Source: a virus (taxonomy: Duplodnaviria; Caudoviricetes). Taken from it: DNA of 64,000 nucleotides. Location of the stretch: IMG/VR virus record IMGVR_UViG_3300025679_000005; one strand, 5' to 3'. This document shows positions 54,943 to 64,000 of the stretch, in pieces (the stretch's first letter is position 1; each line of letters starts with the position of its first letter). A program made the position numbers and the translations under genes. A model generated the notes under the pieces. It ran no database searches, was not told the DNA's origin, and worked only from the letters and a program-made list of their open reading frames with translations.

Positions 54943-55747
54943 GTGTCTATGGTTGTGGGTCGCATCTACCTAATCACCAACAAGGTGAACGGGAAGCAGT
55001 ACGTTGGGCAGACGAAGAAGACCATCCAAAAACGTTGGAACAGCCATATGTGTCTAGCTAAGAAGGGCAGCTCTCTTGCCCTTCACAATGCCATCCGGAA
55101 GTACGGTAAAGACAAATTCACTCTAGAGTGCCTTGAGGAGGTGTCAGGGTCCCATGTCGATCTGATGGCCGCAGAAATACGTCAGATAGCCTTGCATTCA
55201 TCTGTATACCCTTCAGGATATAATCTGACTCATGGTGGGGATGGTGTCGACTTCACCGTTCCCGAAATACGGGACAGAATGTTAGAGGCTGCTAAAAAAA
55301 AGAGCTTTAGACCCCAAATGGATAGAGGCTAATGCTGAAGCGGCCAGGAAACGAGCGGAAGACCCTGAATGGAAGATGGCTATAAGTGTTGCAGCTAGGA
55401 AACGAGCGGAAGACCCTGAATGGCAAGCGAATCAATTTGTGGGTGCTCAAAAACGTTCCGCAGACCCTGAATGGTACCCAGCTATACTTGAAGGGGCCAG
55501 GAAACGAGTAGAAGACCCCGAGTGGCGGGCGAATCAATCCGAGGGTGCTCGTAAACGTTCTGCTGACCCTGAATGGCCATCTAAAAATGCTGAATCTAGG
55601 CGGTTGGCTAATATAGCTTGTTCAGCTAAGGCTCTGGCCAAGGATGCCCTGTGTACCCCAGAAGAAACAGCCAAGCGTGTCCGGCTGAGAGAGAACTCTA
55701 GACGTAGTAAGACCAAAAAGCGATTGAGGGCCACGGAGACGGGCTGA
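54943..55747 (+). pseudogene. GIY-YIG endonuclease with 17-aa repeats, interrupted by a +1 frameshift in an A8 run
   Basis: GRIYLITNKVNGKQYVGQT in frame 0; the repeats continue in the +1 frame from A8 at 55294-55301 (KKRALDPKWIEANAE...), matching paralog 57656. Confidence 0.8.
55343..55590 (+). repeat. 51-bp tandem coding repeats
   Basis: Units start at 55343, 55394, 55445, 55496, 55547 (gc.aggaaacg...gaccctgaatgg). Confidence 0.85.
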
Positions 55748-55757
55748 TTTCCCTAGT

Positions 55758-55803
55758 CCTCTTGTGCACGCCCTTCAACGAATACCTGCGAAGGGCGTGC
55801 ATG
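55758..55803 (+). promoter_or_regulatory. 12-bp perfect hairpin covering RBS and start codon, preceded by a promoter-like motif
   Basis: TGCACGCCCTTC (55765-76) / GAAGGGCGTGCA (55790-801; the last A is the A of ATG); CCTCTTGT at 55758. Confidence 0.65.
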
Positions 55804-57357
55804 GCGGATTACACAGACGGTTGTCTAGAGCGTACGGGCCAAGTCAAAACGGCCTCCGCTACCATTTACCTCGTTGAGGAGGTTGGCGACGCTCGTTTAC
55901 GCTGTGATCAGCTCATACGTTACCTTGATGAGGCCGTGCAGCTCATTGAAAAGTCTGATAAAAAGGACCATTTCTTTGAGGTAGCCGGCCATCTGATCAA
56001 GGGGATCCCTGAAACAGCCTTCAAGCTGCAAAAGGCCCTACAGGCCGTTGCCCTGGCCACAGATCGTATCGATTACGAAGAACTCAAGCAAGAACTGCGA
56101 CCTGAAAAGGTAGAAGAACTCGAACGGGTCCTACAAGATGTTAGGATTAGGCCCGTACCCCATCGTTCGGAGACACCAATGAACCCCAAGCAAGCCGCCA
56201 AAGCCCTTCGCGAACTAGTCCGTATTGCCAATACCGAGGGCAGTCTCCCTGTCTACGAGGTGGCTGAATTCCTGACCACATTGGATCCTCCTGGGGTGGT
56301 TGCTGCGATCGAGCGCAAGGCTGCGGACAAGCTGGAGAAGCTGGCAGAGATGCTTGAGGACCCGAATCAGGAGCCCCTCAGCCGCGTTCGTTTGGCAGCG
56401 GTCATTCGTAGGGTTGCCATGGAAGCCGTGATCGACGATGCAATTCGTCAGGCAAGCACCCCTCGTTTGACGCAAGACCACATGCAGTTGGCGGACGCTC
56501 AAGAGGTCAAGGATAAGTTCAAAGAGTCCAATCCAGACATCTCCGAAGAGTCTTTGAACGAGATTGCTGAGCAGTGGAAGAAGAACAAGGACGTGGTCAA
56601 GGACAAGGCCGCCGGATTTGACGACTTTCCGAGTGTGCCTGCCCTTTTTGAAAGCATCAAGGACAAGGCTATTGTAGCTGTTAGGGCGGCTAACTCGAAG
56701 CGTTGGCGCCAGGCTCTCCTCGACCTCTCTTTCATTGTCGATGACATTGGGACCATCCTTGTGCAGATGGGGGCAATGGATGTAAGTAAGAGTGAGGCAT
56801 TAAAACGAGAAATCCGTAAGGTGATCCCCCATGCGGCCGAGTCCCTTGAGCAATCGGCTCCGATGATGATGGCTGCTTCTGAAGGTCCAGCCTGGGGTGT
56901 AGAAGCCACTGAAGAGAAGCGTACCAAGTTCGAGAAGGATAAGCCAGCTGACCCCACAGAGTCCATGTCCCCCAGCGATGCTGCGAAATGGAAGACTCAG
57001 ACCGAGGAGAACAAGGACAACTTCAAGGCTGCTACGGACGGAGAAGACGCTGCCCGTCGTTCCCGTTTTGAGCAGGGCGTGTCGGCCGACCCCACCCAGA
57101 ACATGGACCCAGAGGATGCCAAGAACTGGAAAGAAGAGCACGACAAGAACAAGGACAACTTCAAGGAAGCCAGTGGGGATGCTGTGGCAGCGGGCAAACT
57201 CACCACGCACCTCGAAGGCAAGAGCGGCCACACCATGTGTGGTGAGCAGTCGGATCCAAAAACGCTCGTGAAGTCTGTGAAGGACGCCTCTTGCTACTAT
57301 TGCAAGCAGGCTTGGGAGAAGAAGCACTCCAAAGCTGCTGTCGACTGGAAAGCATGA
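55801..57357 (+). CDS. Head-region-type protein with internal repeats and a C-terminal Cys/His motif
   Basis: KTAS, RQAS, KEAS motifs; two R.[KR]FE....ADPT..M.P.DA..WK...NKDNFK.A repeats; internal RBS+ATG at 56179. Confidence 0.75.
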   Translation: MADYTDGCLERTGQVKTASATIYLVEEVGDARLRCDQLIRYLDEAVQLIEKSDKKDHFFEVAGHLIKGIPETAFKLQKALQAVALATDRIDYEELKQELRPEKVEELERVLQDVRIRPVPHRSETPMNPKQAAKALRELVRIANTEGSLPVYEVAEFLTTLDPPGVVAAIERKAADKLEKLAEMLEDPNQEPLSRVRLAAVIRRVAMEAVIDDAIRQASTPRLTQDHMQLADAQEVKDKFKESNPDISEESLNEIAEQWKKNKDVVKDKAAGFDDFPSVPALFESIKDKAIVAVRAANSKRWRQALLDLSFIVDDIGTILVQMGAMDVSKSEALKREIRKVIPHAAESLEQSAPMMMAASEGPAWGVEATEEKRTKFEKDKPADPTESMSPSDAAKWKTQTEENKDNFKAATDGEDAARRSRFEQGVSADPTQNMDPEDAKNWKEEHDKNKDNFKEASGDAVAAGKLTTHLEGKSGHTMCGEQSDPKTLVKSVKDASCYYCKQAWEKKHSKAAVDWKA

Positions 57358-57659
57358 TTCCCATGAAGACCGCAGACTACGATCGCACCGCCCGGGGAGT
57401 CTCCGCTGACAAGCTCCTCAAGGATATGGAAGAGAGCGTCGAGAAAATGCTTGATGCTCGTGTCAGCATTCGAAATGTCCACTTGGCACTGGGCGAAGTC
57501 GCCAACGATGCCACGGGCACGATCTTCAAGGACACCTACAATGACCCAGAGTCACGTAAGGTATCCAAGACCTTGTACGATCTCGACTGGGCCATTGGCG
57601 AGGCCTTTCACGCTGTAGAGCATCTTGAGCGCGAACTCAAGAAGAAGCTGATCAAGTGA
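57354..57659 (+). CDS. Hypothetical helical protein with N-terminal KTA-DYDRTA motif
   Basis: ATGA overlap at 57354. Confidence 0.65.
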   Translation: MIPMKTADYDRTARGVSADKLLKDMEESVEKMLDARVSIRNVHLALGEVANDATGTIFKDTYNDPESRKVSKTLYDLDWAIGEAFHAVEHLERELKKKLIK

Positions 57660-58483
57660 GTTCACACCCCCAAATAGCAGGCTGCGTCTACCTCGTCACC
57701 AATACGGTGAACGGGAAGCAGTACGTTGGGCAGACGAAAAAATCCATTAAACGTAGGTGGAGTCAGCACAGGTGCGCCGCTAAGAAGGGTGAATCTTCTG
57801 CCTTATACAATGCTATCCGGAAGTACGGAGCCGATAACTTCACTATAGAGCGCATCGAGGAAGTGGTCGGGATCCACGCTGATTTGGTGGCTGCTGAGAT
57901 CAGACAAATAGCTAGTTACGATTGTGTAAGGCCTAATGGGTACAATCTGACCAGAGGCGGAGATGGGGTCGATTTCACTGTTCCTGAAGTCAAGGCCAAG
58001 ATGGTTGAGGCGGCTAGGGTACGAGCCCAAGACCCAGAGTGGCTTAGAAAGACGACTGAAGCTTCTCGTAAGAGGTCCCTAGACCCCGATTGGATAAGAG
58101 CTAATGCTGAGGGGGCTCTTAACAGAGTCGTTGATCCGAAAGTCCAACGTGAGGGTATGATCAAGAGGTCCGAAAACCCCCAGTGGAAACAGGCCAATTC
58201 GGAGAATAACCGTCGAATGGCCCAAGACCCTGAATGGCAGGCAGCTCAACTTGAAGGTTCTAGGAAAAGGTCCGTTACTCCTGAATGGCAGACATTACGT
58301 GCAGAAGGCCTTCGTAAGTACAATGAAAGTCCAGAGGGTCGAGCGCAACAAGCGGAAGTAACCCGCAAGGCCTTGGAAAAAGATGCTTCGTGTACCCCAC
58401 AAGAGGCGGCTAAACGTATTAGAGAACGGGAGTACATGAGGCGCAAAAGAGCTGCTCGAAAACTGGTGGATATCTCCCAATGA
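57656..58483 (+). CDS. GIY-YIG endonuclease with a 17-aa repeat array
   Basis: GCVYLVTNTVNGKQYVGQT; about 7 R...[DNTS]P.W-type repeats; C-cap ALEKDASCTPQE. Confidence 0.85.
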   Translation: MSSHPQIAGCVYLVTNTVNGKQYVGQTKKSIKRRWSQHRCAAKKGESSALYNAIRKYGADNFTIERIEEVVGIHADLVAAEIRQIASYDCVRPNGYNLTRGGDGVDFTVPEVKAKMVEAARVRAQDPEWLRKTTEASRKRSLDPDWIRANAEGALNRVVDPKVQREGMIKRSENPQWKQANSENNRRMAQDPEWQAAQLEGSRKRSVTPEWQTLRAEGLRKYNESPEGRAQQAEVTRKALEKDASCTPQEAAKRIREREYMRRKRAARKLVDISQ

Positions 58484-59355
58484 CCTCCCCCTTAGTCTCT
58501 CGCCCCCTCTACGGATCCCCAAAGCCCAGCACGTCCTTGGCAGTAGCTGAACTCCCTAGTGGCGGTCATTTAGACAAGGGTATATCTCTTGACTCAGGGA
58601 TCCCTGGAGAGTCAACTTTTGCCAAACCTCCTGATGATTTGCGTAAGGAAGACCCCAAGGATGAAAGTATCTATCGCGTAGAACAGCCTGGCGATTTGGG
58701 AAAGAGCCAAACTACTCCTGATCAAATAGATCATTCGGACGCCAAACCTAGTTTCAATGGACTCGGAAAACCTCCGGAAGGTACTAATGACAAGCCGAAA
58801 TATCCTTACCGTGATGGTGTCCCCAACGCCCACAACGCCTCCTTTGTCGCCGAGCTGTGGAAGCTAGGCAGTGCTCATACCCAGACGCTGAGAGTGTCCC
58901 AGGGGGTAAAGCTGGCTGCCATCCCCGAAGAGATCCTCAATGGTCTAGACCCCGAATTCAAACACCGGGCTGCTCAATGTACCACGACCCTTAAAAGGGC
59001 GGATTTGGGCAACCTCAGGTGGATCTTTGCTGTGGATTGTGGGAACGGTCCCAAAGCGGTCAAGATCAGGGCTTCTCGCCCTGGGAATGTGAGGGCCTTC
59101 GGGAAGCTTGACCTTGAGCTATCCTGTTCCTGCCCTGGCTGGCAGTGGCTAGGCCCAGAGTTCCACGCCAAGTCCGAGGGTTACATGTTGAATCCCCAAG
59201 TGGGCACCGCGTCTACACCTGATATCCGAGACCCTGATCGAACGCATAAAGTGTGTAAGCACGTGGCCTCGGTCTTGAGCTTTACCAGAAGCTGGGAAAT
59301 ACCCAAACAGAAGGCCCAAAAGGCCATCAAAAAAGCAATGAAAATGAGGAAATGA
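58480..59355 (+). CDS. SWIM-type zinc-finger protein
   Basis: LSCSCPGWQW...VCKHVASVL; low-complexity N-terminal half. Confidence 0.65.
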   Translation: MTSPLVSRPLYGSPKPSTSLAVAELPSGGHLDKGISLDSGIPGESTFAKPPDDLRKEDPKDESIYRVEQPGDLGKSQTTPDQIDHSDAKPSFNGLGKPPEGTNDKPKYPYRDGVPNAHNASFVAELWKLGSAHTQTLRVSQGVKLAAIPEEILNGLDPEFKHRAAQCTTTLKRADLGNLRWIFAVDCGNGPKAVKIRASRPGNVRAFGKLDLELSCSCPGWQWLGPEFHAKSEGYMLNPQVGTASTPDIRDPDRTHKVCKHVASVLSFTRSWEIPKQKAQKAIKKAMKMRK

Positions 59356-59762
59356 TGCCGACCTATACGTTCAAAACCAGTGATGGGACGATCCACACCA
59401 AGCGCCTGAGCTTCTCAGTTTACGAGGAGGTCAAGGCAGGCACCCAGACCTTAGTTGCTGACTCAGGGGAACCATTGGAACTAGTGTTCAATCCTGGGGA
59501 GGTGGGCTTCGTCATGAAGGACGGGGCCAGTGGGGGTTGGGCGTCGAAAACCGGGAAAGAGAAGAAGTACCGGGCAGAGCGGAATGTGGAGATGACACGC
59601 CGCGAAAAAGACCATGTTTTCAAGTCCAGATTGGTCCCTAATTACCAGGGTCAAGAGGCGCACTCATGGTCTGATGTCCAGGACCACGTCCGGACAACCA
59701 AGGGTGAATATTCAGCGAGCACTTATCAGCCGCTTGTTTCTAAGGAACGGAGCACATCCTAA
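59352..59762 (+). CDS. Hypothetical protein resembling FmdB-like zinc ribbons but without Cys
   Basis: MPTYTFKTSDG start, FVMKDGASGGWASK. Confidence 0.5.
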   Translation: MMPTYTFKTSDGTIHTKRLSFSVYEEVKAGTQTLVADSGEPLELVFNPGEVGFVMKDGASGGWASKTGKEKKYRAERNVEMTRREKDHVFKSRLVPNYQGQEAHSWSDVQDHVRTTKGEYSASTYQPLVSKERSTS

Positions 59763-60412
59763 TGGCTAGAACCTATAGTATTATTCGGCGTAGAGTGGGC
59801 ATTGTGGACTTACTCACCCCCAAATTAGTCGGAACACAGGGCTACCGCCTCTCCGCTGCGGTCAATTTCGACGGCTCCTTCACTGACCTTATGACGGCTC
59901 CGATCTCGTCAGGGTACCTGGACCCCTCAATCAATCCAGTGGTACTGAATGCCGTCAACAACATCAATGCCATTCGAATTGTCTTCAATCCTAACACCTT
60001 CACCGGAGCCGCCGGGATCGTAGATTCAGCACACTTTTGGCTGAAATTCACGCCAATCGATTTTGCTGGGACTCCGGGGACAGCCAGTGCCGCCGGGCTA
60101 GTGGTCACGGATAGTGAGCACTATGGCAACAGCAGGGTAGTGATTTCAGGGACGGCCCCTCAGGGGGCTGCCTTGGCCAATTCCCAGCAATTGGACCTCC
60201 CTTTCACGACCCAGGACCTCTACATCAAGAATGAAGAGGCCACTGGTGGGCATAATCTGTACATAGCTGCTCTTGCGGGTGGTGGTGAACAGCAAGTAGC
60301 CCCTCAGGAGACCCTTACAATCTTCCACGGCCCCATGGACACCCTGTTTGTTAGGGGTTCCGGGGGCACGGCTGCCTTTTCCGCATCTTTCACCAACTAC
60401 CTACCACTCTAA
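59762..60412 (+). CDS. Putative virion structural protein
   Basis: Beta-rich, Ala/Gly/Thr-rich; TAATG overlap. Confidence 0.6.
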   Translation: MARTYSIIRRRVGIVDLLTPKLVGTQGYRLSAAVNFDGSFTDLMTAPISSGYLDPSINPVVLNAVNNINAIRIVFNPNTFTGAAGIVDSAHFWLKFTPIDFAGTPGTASAAGLVVTDSEHYGNSRVVISGTAPQGAALANSQQLDLPFTTQDLYIKNEEATGGHNLYIAALAGGGEQQVAPQETLTIFHGPMDTLFVRGSGGTAAFSASFTNYLPL

Positions 60413-60416
60413 GGTT

Positions 60417-60450
60417 CCTTTTATCGCTTCTGATCCACAAGCGAGGAGTA
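60417..60450 (+). promoter_or_regulatory. Candidate late promoter plus RBS-pairing hairpin
   Basis: CCTTTTAT 60417; TCGCTT (60424-29) / AAGCGA (60439-44) overlaps the GAGGAG RBS. Confidence 0.45.
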
Positions 60451-60454
60451 TCGC

Positions 60455-61057
60455 ATGCTGAGGCTAACACACGCACAAACAGTTACGGGCGCCATTCGAG
60501 TCGACGACATCGACGACGGTCTTCCAAACAAGGAAGTGCATCGCCTTGGTAGCAAGGGTGACCCCAAGTCATACAAGCGCGACGGCTATGCCGGTGCGAC
60601 GAAGCAGGCTTGTTACATCCCCCGCACGAAGATCGGTGACACAACGGTTGCAGGGTATATCGATATCCTGGAATCGGAACGAGTCCTGATGTCGGCGGGC
60701 CAGGGCAAGATCTCTAAGCTCGTGAAGGCAGGCCTCATCACACAGGCGACAATATTGCCAACGGACGTGGCGATTCCGGTCATTACCTCGGTCACCTTGG
60801 ATTCACCTTCGACGGGTGATGTGACCTTCGTGGGCACGGGATTCCTCTCGGTAGCTCCAGAGGTCAGCACGGTCCGATTCAGTGGTGCTGGCGTGGGTAC
60901 GGTCACTTTGACCAAAGCCCAGATCCTTGTCCCGGGCGGCGGCATTTACACCGACACCTCGATCGTCGTCAAGGCATCGCTCATTGCGGGTCTTACCACT
61001 GGTGACACCGTAACGGTGCGTGCCGACGCTCTGGTCAGCAACATCAAGACATTCTGA
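60455..61057 (+). CDS. Putative virion protein with C-terminal IPT/TIG-like domain
   Basis: PVITSVTLDSP...VGTGF...; paralogous to the C-terminus of 62350. Confidence 0.65.
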   Translation: MLRLTHAQTVTGAIRVDDIDDGLPNKEVHRLGSKGDPKSYKRDGYAGATKQACYIPRTKIGDTTVAGYIDILESERVLMSAGQGKISKLVKAGLITQATILPTDVAIPVITSVTLDSPSTGDVTFVGTGFLSVAPEVSTVRFSGAGVGTVTLTKAQILVPGGGIYTDTSIVVKASLIAGLTTGDTVTVRADALVSNIKTF

Positions 61058-61071
61058 AGTAAGCCCGTGAA

Positions 61072-61425
61072 GTGCAGTACAGCATCCTACCAGGCATCCT
61101 TGAGCAAGAAGGGAATGACTTCTACCGAACCAACAACCGTTGGCAGCCGAAGAATCTCATTCCCGACCCGTATCGACGGAACTTGCTCAAGAATGCTCAA
61201 GCCCGGTTCAACCGGTTGGAGGAAGCTTCAGAGGAACTCGAATCCCTTGATCGCTACCCACTGTACTTCAAGCGCCTCAACAGAATGCGGATCCAGATCA
61301 AAAAAGCTCAGTTCGCCTGGAGAACTGATGACTTGCTCTTTCTCACAGCGATCTCCGATTTCTTCGCAGACTACGGGATCATTATCCAGAATCTCAAAAT
61401 TGATCAAGCCAGAGGCCGTCTCTAA
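61072..61425 (+). CDS. Hypothetical protein
   Basis: Helical, protein-like composition; preferred over the overlapping 61067 frame. Confidence 0.5.
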   Translation: MQYSILPGILEQEGNDFYRTNNRWQPKNLIPDPYRRNLLKNAQARFNRLEEASEELESLDRYPLYFKRLNRMRIQIKKAQFAWRTDDLLFLTAISDFFADYGIIIQNLKIDQARGRL

Positions 61426-61445
61426 GTGTACCTAAGAGAGTCGTT

Positions 61446-62282
61446 GTGGTCGAGCCTTCTGAAGTCATTGGCTGCGTGTATCTAGTCACCAATAAGGTGA
61501 ACGAGAAGAAGTACGTTGGGCAGACGAAGAAGACTGTCATTGGTAGGTGGAAGGCACACTTGAATGCCGCCAAAAATGATAGTCCCTATGCCTTGCACAG
61601 AGCTATTAGGAAGTACGGTAAAGAGAGCTTCACGATTGAGTGCGTAGAGGAAGTGGTGGGTACCCATTTAGAGTTGGTGGCAGCTGAGATCAGGCAAGTA
61701 GCTCTGTATGCCTCAACTTTTCCTGGTGGGTATAATATGACCAGAGGTGGGGATGGTATTGATTTGTTAGTCCATGCCACCAAAGAGCGACAAATGGCTG
61801 GAATCGCTAAGAGGTCTCAGAATCCTGAGTGGCTCAAGAAGCAACTAGAGGCTAGTCAGAGAATAGCTAAAACTCCGGAATGGCAACAAGCACATGCTGA
61901 GGGGATCAAGAAGAGGGGCGAGAGCCCGGAGTGGCTCAAGAACCTTCATGTAGGCATAGCCAATAGACCACCCCCTAGACCCAATGTGATAGAGACTTTG
62001 CGTAAAAATGCTCAGGCTCAATCGGCAACCGCCTTGGAGAGAGATGCTCTACTTACGCCCGAAGAAGCGGACTACAGGGTAAGGCATCGGTTGTACCGTA
62101 AGCGGAGCAAGGCCAAGAAAAAGGCAGAATTAGCGGGGAATCCCTACCCCAATGCCCAAGAGGCTAGAGATACCTTACGTACTCCAGAAGAAATACTTAG
62201 GAGGGCTAAAGAACGAGAGCGTGACCGTCGGCGCTATGCTGCAACCAAGGTCAAAAAGTTGGCCAAATCGGAAAACACCTAA
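61446..62282 (+). CDS. GIY-YIG endonuclease with 17-aa repeats and a duplicated C-cap
   Basis: GCVYLVTNKVNEKKYVGQT; 3 full ..PEW repeats; TPEE cap twice. Confidence 0.85.
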   Translation: MVEPSEVIGCVYLVTNKVNEKKYVGQTKKTVIGRWKAHLNAAKNDSPYALHRAIRKYGKESFTIECVEEVVGTHLELVAAEIRQVALYASTFPGGYNMTRGGDGIDLLVHATKERQMAGIAKRSQNPEWLKKQLEASQRIAKTPEWQQAHAEGIKKRGESPEWLKNLHVGIANRPPPRPNVIETLRKNAQAQSATALERDALLTPEEADYRVRHRLYRKRSKAKKKAELAGNPYPNAQEARDTLRTPEEILRRAKERERDRRRYAATKVKKLAKSENT

Positions 62283-62287
62283 GGGTT

Positions 62288-62295
62288 TCTTTTAT
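62288..62295 (+). promoter_or_regulatory. Candidate late promoter motif
   Basis: TCTTTTAT followed by caATCCACAA; ATCCACAA also follows the 60417 copy. Confidence 0.45.
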
Positions 62296-62349
62296 CAATC
62301 CACAATCCATAGTGAGTAAGTCAATGACACAAGCTTCAAGGAGTCTAAA

Positions 62350-63576: not shown

Positions 63577-63828
63577 ATGAAGCCTACTACCCCTGAAAAT
63601 GAGTTTCGCACGTCCGATCTTTACTTCGCCGCGTATCTGCAAGTTGCTGGAGTCACCATGACTCGCACTGATCGCAACGGCTCCGGTAAGGTCAGTTTCA
63701 TCTTCGACACTTCGATCAGCAACATCGAAGAACTAAAGAACGCCTGGTTTAGCCAAGGTGGTAAAGTGGCAGCGTTACCTTATGCTAACGCTGTAAAAAC
63801 CCTTAAATCGGTTTGCCACATGCCGTGA
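63577..63828 (+). CDS. Small DUF5659-like protein
   Basis: FRTSDLYFAAYLQVAG...GKVSFIFD...Y.NAVKTLK pattern recalled for DUF5659. Confidence 0.5.
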   Translation: MKPTTPENEFRTSDLYFAAYLQVAGVTMTRTDRNGSGKVSFIFDTSISNIEELKNAWFSQGGKVAALPYANAVKTLKSVCHMP

Positions 63829-63851
63829 TACTTAGTAACATCGGCGATACC

Positions 63852-64000
63852 ATGAAGCGATGTACTAGGTGCGACATCCCGAAAGAGTTGTCGGAGTTTC
63901 CAAAGGACAAGAGCAAGAAGGATGGGCACTACCCTGTCTGCAAGCCTTGCCGTAGTCCTTTGACTAAGGTTTCGTATGTTGTGAATCGCGAAGGGATTCG
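63852..64000 (+). CDS. 5' end of another HNH/EndoVII-type endonuclease (runs off the window)
   Basis: MKRCTRCDIPKELSEFPKDKSKKDGHYPVCKPC, same zinc motif as in 39442. Confidence 0.65.
   Translation, partial: MKRCTRCDIPKELSEFPKDKSKKDGHYPVCKPCRSPLTKVSYVVNREGI

What the first reader, a model, noticed from the sequence alone, without database searches (positions are those of the whole stretch)
54943..62282. Family of GIY-YIG endonucleases with variable-length arrays of a 17-aa repeat: candidate modular DNA-recognition code
Seen: three paralogs share an N-terminal GIY-YIG domain (...YNLT.GGDG.D) and a C-terminal cap (AL.[KR]DA..TP[EQ]E...R...R...RR.K). Between them is an array of 17-aa units, consensus [GA]xxKRxxDPEWxxxxxE. 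There are about 6 units in 54943 (e.g. AARKRAEDPEWKMAISV, GAQKRSADPEWYPAILE, GARKRVEDPEWRANQSE), about 7 in 57656 (one shortened to 14 aa) and 3 in 61446 (cap duplicated). Scaffold positions are fixed; the positions after W and around KR vary. The 51-bp DNA periodicity shows recent expansion. Known: GIY-YIG homing endonucleases are a non-specific nuclease tethered to modular binding domains (NUMODs, HTH). Inference: repeat number and variable residues may set target length and sequence, TALE-like, letting paralogs retarget by repeat shuffling.
Basis: partly seen in the sequence, partly recalled or inferred. Interest (0 to 1): 0.75.

Follow-up and report, generated by a model that had tools for sequence, protein, structure and literature searches.

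The report
Homing nucleases with 17-residue helical repeats
Three copies of a selfish DNA-cutting gene sit between the structural genes of a very large peat-soil phage, and their DNA-gripping tails are built from a widespread, unnamed 17-residue helical repeat that looks like a variant of a known homing-endonuclease module, not a TALE-like code.

Summary
Three GIY-YIG genes carry arrays of 6, 7 and 3 units spaced exactly 17 aa apart, plus a basic C-terminal cap. Copy 1 is broken by one extra A in an A8 run. DNA-level periodicity is seen only in copy 1 and is at most 76% identical.

They are free-standing I-TevI/Seg-type homing endonuclease genes. Relatives occupy five different intergenic junctions of one conserved late-gene block in 286-620 kb phage contigs. 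The sites of copies 1 and 3 are empty in the closest relative.

The repeat is not special to this family. A profile of the tail finds 1161 protein clusters, including HNH enzymes and proteins that also carry NUMOD1, NUMOD3 or HTH modules. It fails Pfam's NUMOD3 model, but shares its period, helix-cap motif and position, and hybrid units exist.

The data do not look TALE-like. Units within a protein are only 40% identical, and variability is spread over 14 of 17 positions. Enzymes at different junctions share the modal array length, and enzymes at one junction differ in length.

A wide acid-free helix face does suggest that the array binds DNA. I read it as a new variant of a known kind, of moderate interest. 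A residue-to-base code is not excluded (about 8%).

The parts
54943..55332 (+). Copy 1, frame 0: GIY-YIG nuclease domain (129 aa ORF). It ends at a stop 31 nt after the A8 run.
   Evidence: PF01541, E 1.5e-11
55294..55301 (+). A8 homopolymer where the reading frame of copy 1 breaks. One A fewer would join the two frames.
   Evidence: the same A8 is in an independent assembly at depth about 84
55289..55594 (+). Copy 1, frame +1: six 17-aa units.
55595..55747 (+). Copy 1, frame +1: pre-cap helix and basic cap (AKDALCTPEE...), with the stop codon.
57656..57967 (+). Copy 2: GIY-YIG nuclease domain. Its GTG start overlaps the stop codon of the upstream gene.
57968..58375 (+). Copy 2: linker (VDFTVPEV) and seven units, one of them 14 aa. 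AlphaFold2 models one helix per unit, broken at D-P.
58376..58483 (+). Copy 2: basic cap (EKDASCTPQEAAKRIREREYMRRKRAARK...). Its stop codon overlaps the ATG of the next gene.
61446..61757 (+). Copy 3: GIY-YIG nuclease domain (GTG start).
61758..62036 (+). Copy 3: linker, three units and the pre-cap segment.
62037..62282 (+). Copy 3: two caps in tandem (residues 198-226 and 239-278) and the stop codon.
61426..62349 (+). The cassette inserted at junction J5, including copy 3. In relative L009, the homologues of the flanking genes (the 117-aa gene and the 370-aa gene) are 27 nt apart.

Best explanation
These are three free-standing GIY-YIG homing endonuclease genes of the I-TevI/Seg type in a very large phage from peat. 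One of them is frameshifted.

Each protein has three parts: an I-TevI-like nuclease, a short linker, and a basic C-terminal DNA-binding region. That region is an array of 17-residue helices (G-A-R-K-R-S-A-D-P-E-W-x-x-x-x-x-E, each capped by D-P) followed by a helical hairpin whose last helix is very rich in Arg and Lys.

The repeat is a widespread, unnamed nuclease-associated module. It is most simply read as a derived form of the NUMOD3 minor-groove helix.

Inferred mechanism: the array lies along the DNA through its acid-free face and, together with the cap, anchors the enzyme on a long, tolerantly read site. The tethered nuclease then cuts nearby, and repair copies the gene into phages that lack it. 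New sites are reached by ordinary divergence of the whole tail and by gain or loss of whole units, not by a one-repeat-one-base code.

Shown here: the nuclease fold and its catalytic residues, the repeat anatomy, the presence/absence of the genes at junctions, and the wide distribution of the repeat. Inferred: DNA binding by the array, the mode of binding, and homing activity.
For: Nuclease:
- PF01541 and TIGR01453 match. I-TevI matches by sequence and by fold.
- Y12 is nearly invariant, and Y23, R34, H38, E81 and N97 are invariant. My own mapping, not a tool result, pairs these with I-TevI catalytic residues.

Mobility:
- Family members sit at five junctions (J1-J5) of one syntenic block in 286-620 kb phage contigs. 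Locus L008 has four copies within 6 kb. J1 and J5 are empty in the closest relative, L009.
- The window's three copies cluster on the nuclease tree (bootstrap/SH-aLRT 97/89 and 91/71). Site labels do not cluster.

The repeat as a nuclease-associated module:
- A profile of the tail finds 1161 clusters at E<=1e-3.
- Arrays also occur with HNH_3, NUMOD1/I-HmuI-like HTH, NUMOD3 and sigma-70 region 4.

Likeness to NUMOD3:
- The next-nearest homologues carry PF07460 at the same place.
- Canonical NUMOD3 units in those homologues have the same 17-aa period and an [ST]-x-E helix cap.
- Hybrid units exist: TPEWRAKISAAKKGK (P0018) and NPEWRRKLSEAFKGR (Xanthomonas phage PhiXhv-7).
- ESM Atlas structure matches are to NUMOD3-bearing clusters (TM by query 0.47-0.67).

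DNA binding:
- Array pI is 9.1-11.4 and cap pI is 9.6-11.9.
- About 220 degrees of the helix surface is free of acidic residues. It carries K4, R5, W11, G1 and the polar position 15. The acidic residues form one stripe on the other side.
- C-terminal identity is slightly higher for same-site pairs (permutation p 0.017).

Published role of NUMOD3: PMC2853131, PMC3664794.
Against: - Pfam NUMOD3 does not match any family member at E<=1.
- The profile-profile score against NUMOD3 units is weak (hhalign P 0.0035, probability 3.8%). Outside the columns used to pick the units, there is no signal in that register.
- No solved structure resembles the array.
- AlphaFold2 gives long helices broken only at D-P, unlike the helix-plus-loop form of NUMOD3.
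- No cleavage, binding or target-site data exist.
- Junction J2 is occupied in 8 of the 9 phage contigs that cover it. That could mean a fixed, host-useful gene and not an actively homing one.
Confidence: 0.6

Rival explanations
1. Modular code. Each 17-aa unit reads a fixed number of bases through a few variable residues, for example positions 12, 15, 16 and 2 on the acid-free face. Paralogs would then retarget by shuffling units.
For: - Array length changes in whole-unit steps (96, 113, 130, 164 and 181 aa).
- Copy 1 contains a two-unit duplication.
- Position 15 is N, Q, H, T or S in 67% of units. It lies on the acid-free face next to W11.
- One scaffold serves five insertion sites.
Against: - Units within a protein are only 40% identical, against 30% between proteins.
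- Fourteen of the 17 positions have 2.4-3.3 bits of entropy, so there is no hypervariable pair on a fixed scaffold.
- All four J1 enzymes and three J2 enzymes share the 129-131 aa array length, while J2 enzymes range from 96 to 164 aa.
- In the characterised enzymes I-TevI and I-BmoI, NUMOD3 helices make few base-specific contacts (PMC2853131).
Confidence: 0.08
2. Ruler or spacer. The cap, together with the nuclease and linker, carries the sequence specificity. The helical array binds DNA only non-specifically or not at all, and sets the distance between the anchor and the cut site, as the I-TevI linker does.
For: - The modal array length (130 aa) is conserved across different sites.
- The cap is the most basic part of the protein.
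- In 2 of 15 family members the cap reaches bZIP basic-region models (PF07716, 22.9 bits against a cut-off of 22.3 in P0002).
- The model is elongated with no compact fold (pTM 0.45).
Against: - The array itself is basic and has a wide acid-free face.
- The same arrays occur in enzymes that lack this cap and use HTH modules instead, or no other module that Pfam recognises.
- The window's own caps do not match bZIP models.
Confidence: 0.2
3. Domesticated or decaying genes. The copies no longer home. Copy 1 is a pseudogene. The nearly universal J2 copy has been kept for a phage function such as excluding competing phages or regulating genes.
For: - Copy 1 is frameshifted, and the frameshift is real in the assembly.
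- J2 is occupied in 8 of the 9 contigs that cover it.
- Copy 2 is translationally coupled to both neighbours through GTGA and ATGA overlaps.
Against: - Catalytic residues are intact in all three copies.
- J1, J3, J4 and J5 show clear presence/absence between phages.
- Exclusion of competing phages is itself the known consequence of free-standing homing endonucleases (PMC2330249, PMC2988022), so this is not really a separate mechanism.
Confidence: 0.1

Closest known systems
I-TevI, I-BmoI and T4 Seg free-standing GIY-YIG homing endonucleases (PF01541, TIGR01453)
   Same: - The N-terminal GIY-YIG domain matches by sequence and by fold, with the conserved active-site positions present.
- The layout is the same: nuclease, linker, then an extended C-terminal region.
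- The genes are free-standing between conserved phage genes, with presence/absence between relatives.
   Different: - There is no zinc finger, no Pfam-recognised NUMOD and no HTH.
- The tail is a long array of 17-aa D-P-capped helices plus a basic helical hairpin.
- TIGR01453 scores (46.9-55.7 bits) fall below its 56.05 cut-off.
NUMOD3 (PF07460), the minor-groove alpha-helix of I-TevI, I-HmuI and I-BmoI
   Same: - Both have a 17-aa tandem period.
- Both have a helix N-cap followed by Glu: [ST]-x-E in NUMOD3 and D-P-E here.
- Both follow a GIY-YIG or HNH domain.
- Both occur in the same proteins (P0174, P0088). Hybrid units exist.
- Predicted structures are alike in the Atlas search.
   Different: - It fails the Pfam model, and profile-profile similarity is weak.
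- Gly falls at +10 from the cap, not +13.
- It has an invariant Trp.
- The helix is predicted to run through the whole unit, without the G-K-x-H loop.
TALE repeats and other one-repeat-one-base arrays
   Same: Both are tandem helical units of fixed length with variable copy number in a DNA-targeting protein.
   Different: The units here are 17 aa, not 33-35. They are only about 40% identical within one protein, have no hypervariable di-residue, and array length is not tied to the site.
bZIP basic region (PF07716, PF00170)
   Same: The cap's last helix is Arg/Lys-rich. Two of 15 family members reach the bZIP_2 model.
   Different: There is no leucine zipper. The window's three proteins give no hit. 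The likeness may be compositional only.

Membership tests
GIY-YIG homing endonucleases (I-TevI/Seg type) | GIY-YIG catalytic domain recognised by sequence and by fold | tested here: met
   PF01541 E 1e-8 to 1e-11. PDB 1MK0/1LN0 E 4e-10. Foldseek TM by target 0.75-0.79.
GIY-YIG homing endonucleases (I-TevI/Seg type) | Conserved active-site residues (I-TevI Y6, Y17, R27, H31, E75, N90) | tested here: met
   Y12 is nearly invariant. Y23, R34, H38, E81 and N97 are invariant in 16 family members, and all are present in all three window copies. The pairing with I-TevI residue numbers is my own reading of the alignment.
GIY-YIG homing endonucleases (I-TevI/Seg type) | Gene present or absent at the same genomic site in related genomes | tested here: met
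   J1 and J5 are occupied in the window and empty in L009. J3 and J4 are occupied only in L008/L011 and L010.
GIY-YIG homing endonucleases (I-TevI/Seg type) | Site-specific cleavage of the allele that lacks the gene, and gene conversion | not testable with these tools
   Needs enzyme assays or mixed infections.
NUMOD3 (PF07460) | Match to the Pfam model at its gathering score (20.4 bits) | tested here: not met
   No hit at E<=1 in the three window proteins or in 15 family tails. The same search finds NUMOD3 in P0017, P0088 and P0174.
NUMOD3 (PF07460) | 17-aa tandem helical unit with an N-cap and Glu, placed after a homing nuclease domain | tested here: met
   Exact 17-aa spacing. One helix per unit in the AlphaFold2 models. 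Canonical NUMOD3 units in the homologues have the same period.
NUMOD3 (PF07460) | Profile-level sequence relationship to NUMOD3 units | tested here: inconclusive
   hhalign P 0.0035, probability 3.8%. The preferred register pairs D8 with the S/T cap. The circular-shift test gives z 2.6, driven by the motif columns. Hybrid units are seen.
NUMOD3 (PF07460) | Helix lies in the DNA minor groove | not testable with these tools
   No protein-DNA modelling was available. The PDB fold searches returned no DNA-bound match for the array.
TALE-like modular code | Near-identical repeats that differ at one or two specificity residues | tested here: not met
   Within-protein unit identity is 0.40. Fourteen of 17 positions have 2.4-3.3 bits of entropy.
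TALE-like modular code | Repeat number and residues correlate with the target sequence | tested here: inconclusive
   Same-site enzymes have arrays of 96-164 aa, and the modal length is shared between different sites. There is a small same-site excess of tail identity (p 0.017). The targets themselves are unknown.
bZIP basic region | Match to PF07716 or PF00170, with an adjoining leucine zipper | tested here: not met
   Only 2 of 15 tails match, and none from the window. The proteins end right after the basic helix.

The most novel reading that the evidence does not exclude
The DPEW array is a new kind of modular DNA-reading repeat. Each 17-residue helix presents a few variable residues (positions 12, 15, 16 and 2, beside the invariant Trp) to a fixed stretch of DNA. 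Whole-unit gain, loss and exchange would then retarget homing nucleases of several catalytic families, and the arrays could be reprogrammed.
Probability: 0.08. Interest if true: 0.85.

Novelty: new variant of a known kind. Interest (0 to 1): 0.45.

Why it matters
The 17-residue D-P-E-W helix array appears to be a common DNA-binding module of homing nucleases that has not been described. It occurs in more than a thousand protein clusters, and with GIY-YIG, HNH and other domains. It has no Pfam model and no solved structure, and I found no mention of it in the searchable literature.

The huge-phage gene block described here is a natural experiment. One scaffold has colonised at least five neighbouring junctions, and occupied and empty alleles are both available. 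This gives a concrete set of enzyme-target pairs for asking how such arrays recognise DNA. It also allows a test of whether they are tolerant groove-binders like NUMOD3 or carry readable specificity.

If it is only a NUMOD3 variant, the value is better annotation and a clearer picture of how selfish nucleases shape mosaicism in giant phages.

Tried and rejected
- Near-identical DNA search of the region against known phages found no match. No whole genome is held for this window.
- Tandem Repeats Finder found no 51-bp array.
- Pfam, NCBIfam and PHROGs gave no model for the repeat region.
- Fold searches with the tail model gave nothing I would call a fold relative:
  - PDB by Foldseek gave one row at E 1.3 (GerD).
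  - VIA-align against 48,161 chains gave a best Z of 6.2, on the last two helices only.
  - AlphaFold DB clusters returned only other GIY-YIG tails, then STI1 DP domains, GerD and DUF3106 at E>0.06.
- phmmer with a NUMOD3 protein did not retrieve the I-TevI DNA-binding chain, so I made no residue-level comparison with the solved NUMOD3 helix.
- The circular-shift profile test and hhalign against NUMOD3 units gave only weak signal.
- The nuclease-domain tree is poorly resolved: 11 of 17 inner branches are open. I use it only for the grouping of the window's copies.
- A per-position comparison of same-site and cross-site enzymes was dropped, because eight sequences confounded by ancestry are too few.
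- Literature searches for 'DPEW' with endonuclease found nothing. The scan's own index has no look-alike.
- A -1 programmed frameshift at the A_AAA_AAG heptamer in copy 1 was considered and rejected, because the array lies in the +1 frame and the -1 frame has stops.
- Reads could not test for A7/A8 heterogeneity, because only contigs were available.


Full report
**What is in the sequence.** ORF listing and translation show three related genes on the + strand. Copy 2 (57656-58483, 275 aa) and copy 3 (61446-62282, 278 aa) are intact. Copy 1 is split. Frame 0 (54943-55332) encodes the nuclease domain and stops 31 nt after an A8 run at 55294-55301. The repeat array and cap continue in frame +1 to 55747. 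With one A fewer, the junction would read ...EAAKKRALDPKWIEANAE, a normal first unit. An independent assembly of a 2016 peat-metagenome run covers the gene with no differences at depth about 84, so the extra A is not a local assembly slip. That run may be the sample the window was assembled from. Contigs also cannot show minority variants.

**Repeat anatomy.** Trp residues fall at exact 17-aa intervals: 129, 146, 177, 194 and 211 in copy 2, and 129, 146 and 163 in copy 3. In register there are 6 units in copy 1, 7 in copy 2 (one of 14 aa, the last degenerate) and 3 in copy 3, which also has two caps. Over 80 units of the close family the consensus is G-A-R-K-R-S-A-D-P-E-W-Q-K-A-N-A-E. Only D8, P9 and W11 are strongly fixed.

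**DNA-level periodicity.** At DNA level the periodicity is weak. Tandem Repeats Finder reports nothing. Mean unit-to-unit nucleotide identity is 0.59 in copy 1 (maximum 0.76), 0.47 in copy 2 and 0.52 in copy 3, against 0.50 between paralogs. Copy 1 contains a two-unit (102-nt) duplication at 74% identity. The paralogs themselves are 56-63% identical in the nuclease domain and 40-44% in the tail. None of this is recent.

**The nuclease.**
- Pfam GIY-YIG matches all three copies.
- TIGR01453 (group I intron endonuclease) matches just below its cut-off.
- PHROG homing-endonuclease families match at 1e-24 to 1e-28.
- A family profile finds the I-TevI catalytic domain in the PDB (E 4e-10).
- The AlphaFold2 model superposes on it (TM by target 0.75-0.79).
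- The family's conserved positions Y12, Y23, R34, H38, E81 and N97 pair with the I-TevI active-site residues (the pairing is my own reading of the alignment).

**Genomic setting.** Earlier notes on this genome describe a phage with inteins in terminase, portal and protease (not re-tested here). The window's protein lies on a 464 kb contig. Fourteen close homologues (33-53% identity, same repeats and cap) come from metagenomes, several on contigs of 286-620 kb. Fetching their loci showed one conserved block of late genes. In window terms it runs 394-aa | 531-aa | 291-aa | 136-aa | 216-aa | 200-aa | 117-aa | 370-aa. Family members sit at five different junctions of this block:

| Junction | Flanking genes | Occupied by |
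|---|---|---|
| J1 | 394 \| 531 | window copy 1, L008, L013, L014 |
| J2 | 531 \| 291 | window copy 2, L002, L004, L005, L007, L009, and two genes in L008 |
| J3 | 291 \| 136 | L008, L011 |
| J4 | 136 \| 216 | L010 |
| J5 | 117 \| 370 | window copy 3 |

L008 carries four such genes within 6 kb. The closest relative is L009, with 48-74% protein identity. It has J1 without a nuclease gene, and at J5 only 27 nt separate the flanking genes. In the window, copy 3 is inserted between the stop codon of the 117-aa gene and the preserved ribosome-binding site of the 370-aa gene. This mosaic is the signature of free-standing homing endonuclease genes, as known for T4 seg and mob genes (PMC2988022, PMC2330249).

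**Retargeting.** On a tree of the nuclease domain, the window's three copies group together (copy 1 with copy 3 at 97/89, then copy 2 at 91/71). Site labels are no more clustered than after shuffling (12 changes against a shuffled mean of 11.1). The tree is otherwise poorly resolved. Tail identity is slightly higher for same-site pairs (37.7% against 34.8%). After regressing out nuclease identity, the permutation p is 0.017, and the two most similar tails are same-site pairs. That is what any target-binding domain would show. It does not reveal a code.

**How special is the repeat?** It is not special to this family. A profile of the tail searched against 1.84 billion representatives finds 1161 proteins at E<=1e-3, 367 at 1e-10 and 50 at 1e-30. 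Of the 142 top hits I inspected (of 150 listed), 94 did not match my simple regexes for the GIY-YIG motifs. Pfam scans of 20 of those 94, and the sequences themselves, show other architectures:
- P0133 has HNH_3, then eight near-perfect DPEW units, then a NUMOD1/I-HmuI-like HTH.
- P0174 has DPEW units, then NUMOD3 units, then an HNH motif.
- P0122, P0135 and P0149 have arrays in front of an unnamed Cys/His-rich C-terminal domain.
- P0258 has arrays plus sigma-70 region 4.

So this is a nuclease-associated modular repeat in the sense of the NUMODs. No Pfam, NCBIfam or PHROG model covers it. I found no description of it, although subscription journals are outside the searchable library.

**Relation to NUMOD3.** NUMOD3 is the minor-groove alpha-helix of I-TevI, I-HmuI and I-BmoI. 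In I-TevI it makes one phosphate contact, and a preceding His makes the base contacts. In I-BmoI the equivalent residues tolerate substitution (PMC2853131, PMC3664794).

For a relationship:
- The next tier of homologues carries PF07460 in the same place.
- Canonical NUMOD3 units in those proteins have the same 17-aa period and an [ST]-x-E helix cap.
- An intermediate 'W-x-D-P-E-[FY]-R-x-K' type links the two and is found by the DPEW profile.
- Hybrid units occur, such as TPEWRAKISAAKKGK in P0018 and NPEWRRKLSEAFKGR in Xanthomonas phage PhiXhv-7.
- The ESM Atlas structure search returns NUMOD3-bearing clusters (TM by query 0.47-0.67).

Against a relationship:
- The Pfam model does not match.
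- hhalign is weak (P 0.0035).
- The signal outside the selected motif columns is nil.

I therefore describe it as working like, and probably derived from, NUMOD3. I do not file it as a member.

**Structure.** AlphaFold2 models of copy 2 (whole protein, then the tail alone) give one helix per unit, starting at P-E-W and broken only at D-P. The last two helices form a hairpin. pLDDT is about 90 but pTM is 0.40-0.45, which indicates an elongated chain with uncertain long-range shape. No solved structure matches the array.

**Does the array bind DNA?**
- Arrays have pI 9.1-11.4 and caps have pI 9.6-11.9.
- On a helical wheel of 515 units, the acidic residues form one stripe (E10 and E17, moment 0.86).
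- The other roughly 220 degrees are essentially free of acidic residues. That face carries K4, R5, G1, W11, positions 12 and 14 (often basic) and position 15 (N, Q, H, T or S in 67% of units).
- This favours DNA contact along the array and counts against an inert spacer. It is inference only.

**Is it a code?** The data do not look like one.
- Within-protein unit identity is 0.40, against 0.30 between proteins. Fourteen of 17 positions have 2.4-3.3 bits of entropy.
- The distance from nuclease to cap is quantised in whole units (96, 113, 130, 164 and 181 aa) with a strong mode at 130.
- All four J1 enzymes and three J2 enzymes share that mode. Other J2 enzymes have 96, 119, 136 or 164 aa.
- However, several variable positions lie on the putative DNA face, and the targets are unknown. 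A residue-to-base relationship therefore cannot be excluded.

**The cap.** The conserved motif A-[RK]-D-A-x-x-x-P-E-E is followed by an Arg/Lys-rich helix. Two of 15 family members reach bZIP basic-region models (P0002: 22.9 bits against a cut-off of 22.3). The window's proteins do not, and there is no zipper. I treat this as a compositional likeness.

**Verdict.** The genes are free-standing GIY-YIG homing endonuclease genes in a nuclease-rich giant phage. The repeat is a widespread, undescribed, NUMOD3-like helical module. The TALE analogy is not supported, though it is not excluded.

Noticed in passing
window 55294-55301 and 55376-55747: The break in copy 1 leaves two ORFs: a nuclease-only product of 129 aa, and a 123-aa ORF starting at Met 55376 that would encode the array and cap alone. 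The A_AAA_AAG heptamer lies in frame 0, but the array is in the +1 frame. So only a +1 shift or loss of one A by polymerase slippage could rejoin them.
   Followed up: partly
window 63813-63998 (runs off the end): A Cys-rich ORF start (C-x2-C ... SKKDG ... C-x2-C) resembles the N-terminal zinc ribbon of P0122, a protein with a long DPEW array. It may be a fourth homing-nuclease gene of another catalytic type.
   Followed up: no
L008 1154-6768: A related phage contig has four GIY-YIG genes of this family interleaved with four conserved late genes within 6 kb. This is an extreme hot spot.
   Followed up: partly
window 57291-57659, 57656-58483 and 58480-59355: Copy 2 is translationally coupled on both sides. 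Its GTG start overlaps the upstream stop codon (GTGA), and its stop overlaps the next gene's ATG (ATGA). All three copies are listed with GTG starts.
   Followed up: no
window 58480-59355: The conserved 291-aa gene downstream of junction J2 contains a C-x-C ... C-x-H pattern. Its homologue in L010 has a faint SWIM zinc-finger hit.
   Followed up: no
window 55762-57357: The 531-aa gene has an internal duplication of about 35 aa in its C-terminal half (KFEKDKPADPTESMSPSDAAKWK... and RFEQGVSADPTQNMDPEDAKNWK...).
   Followed up: no
P0015 (metagenome homologue): This family member has two DPEW units, but the basic cap is replaced by a C-x2-C ... C-x2-C zinc-ribbon-like tail. This shows module exchange at the C-terminus.
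   Followed up: no
P0122, P0135, P0149: DPEW arrays precede a conserved domain (GGFW.G ... HHVYY.KK.CC ... GDPNKFV.LT) that no Pfam model recognises. It may be another nuclease type.
   Followed up: no
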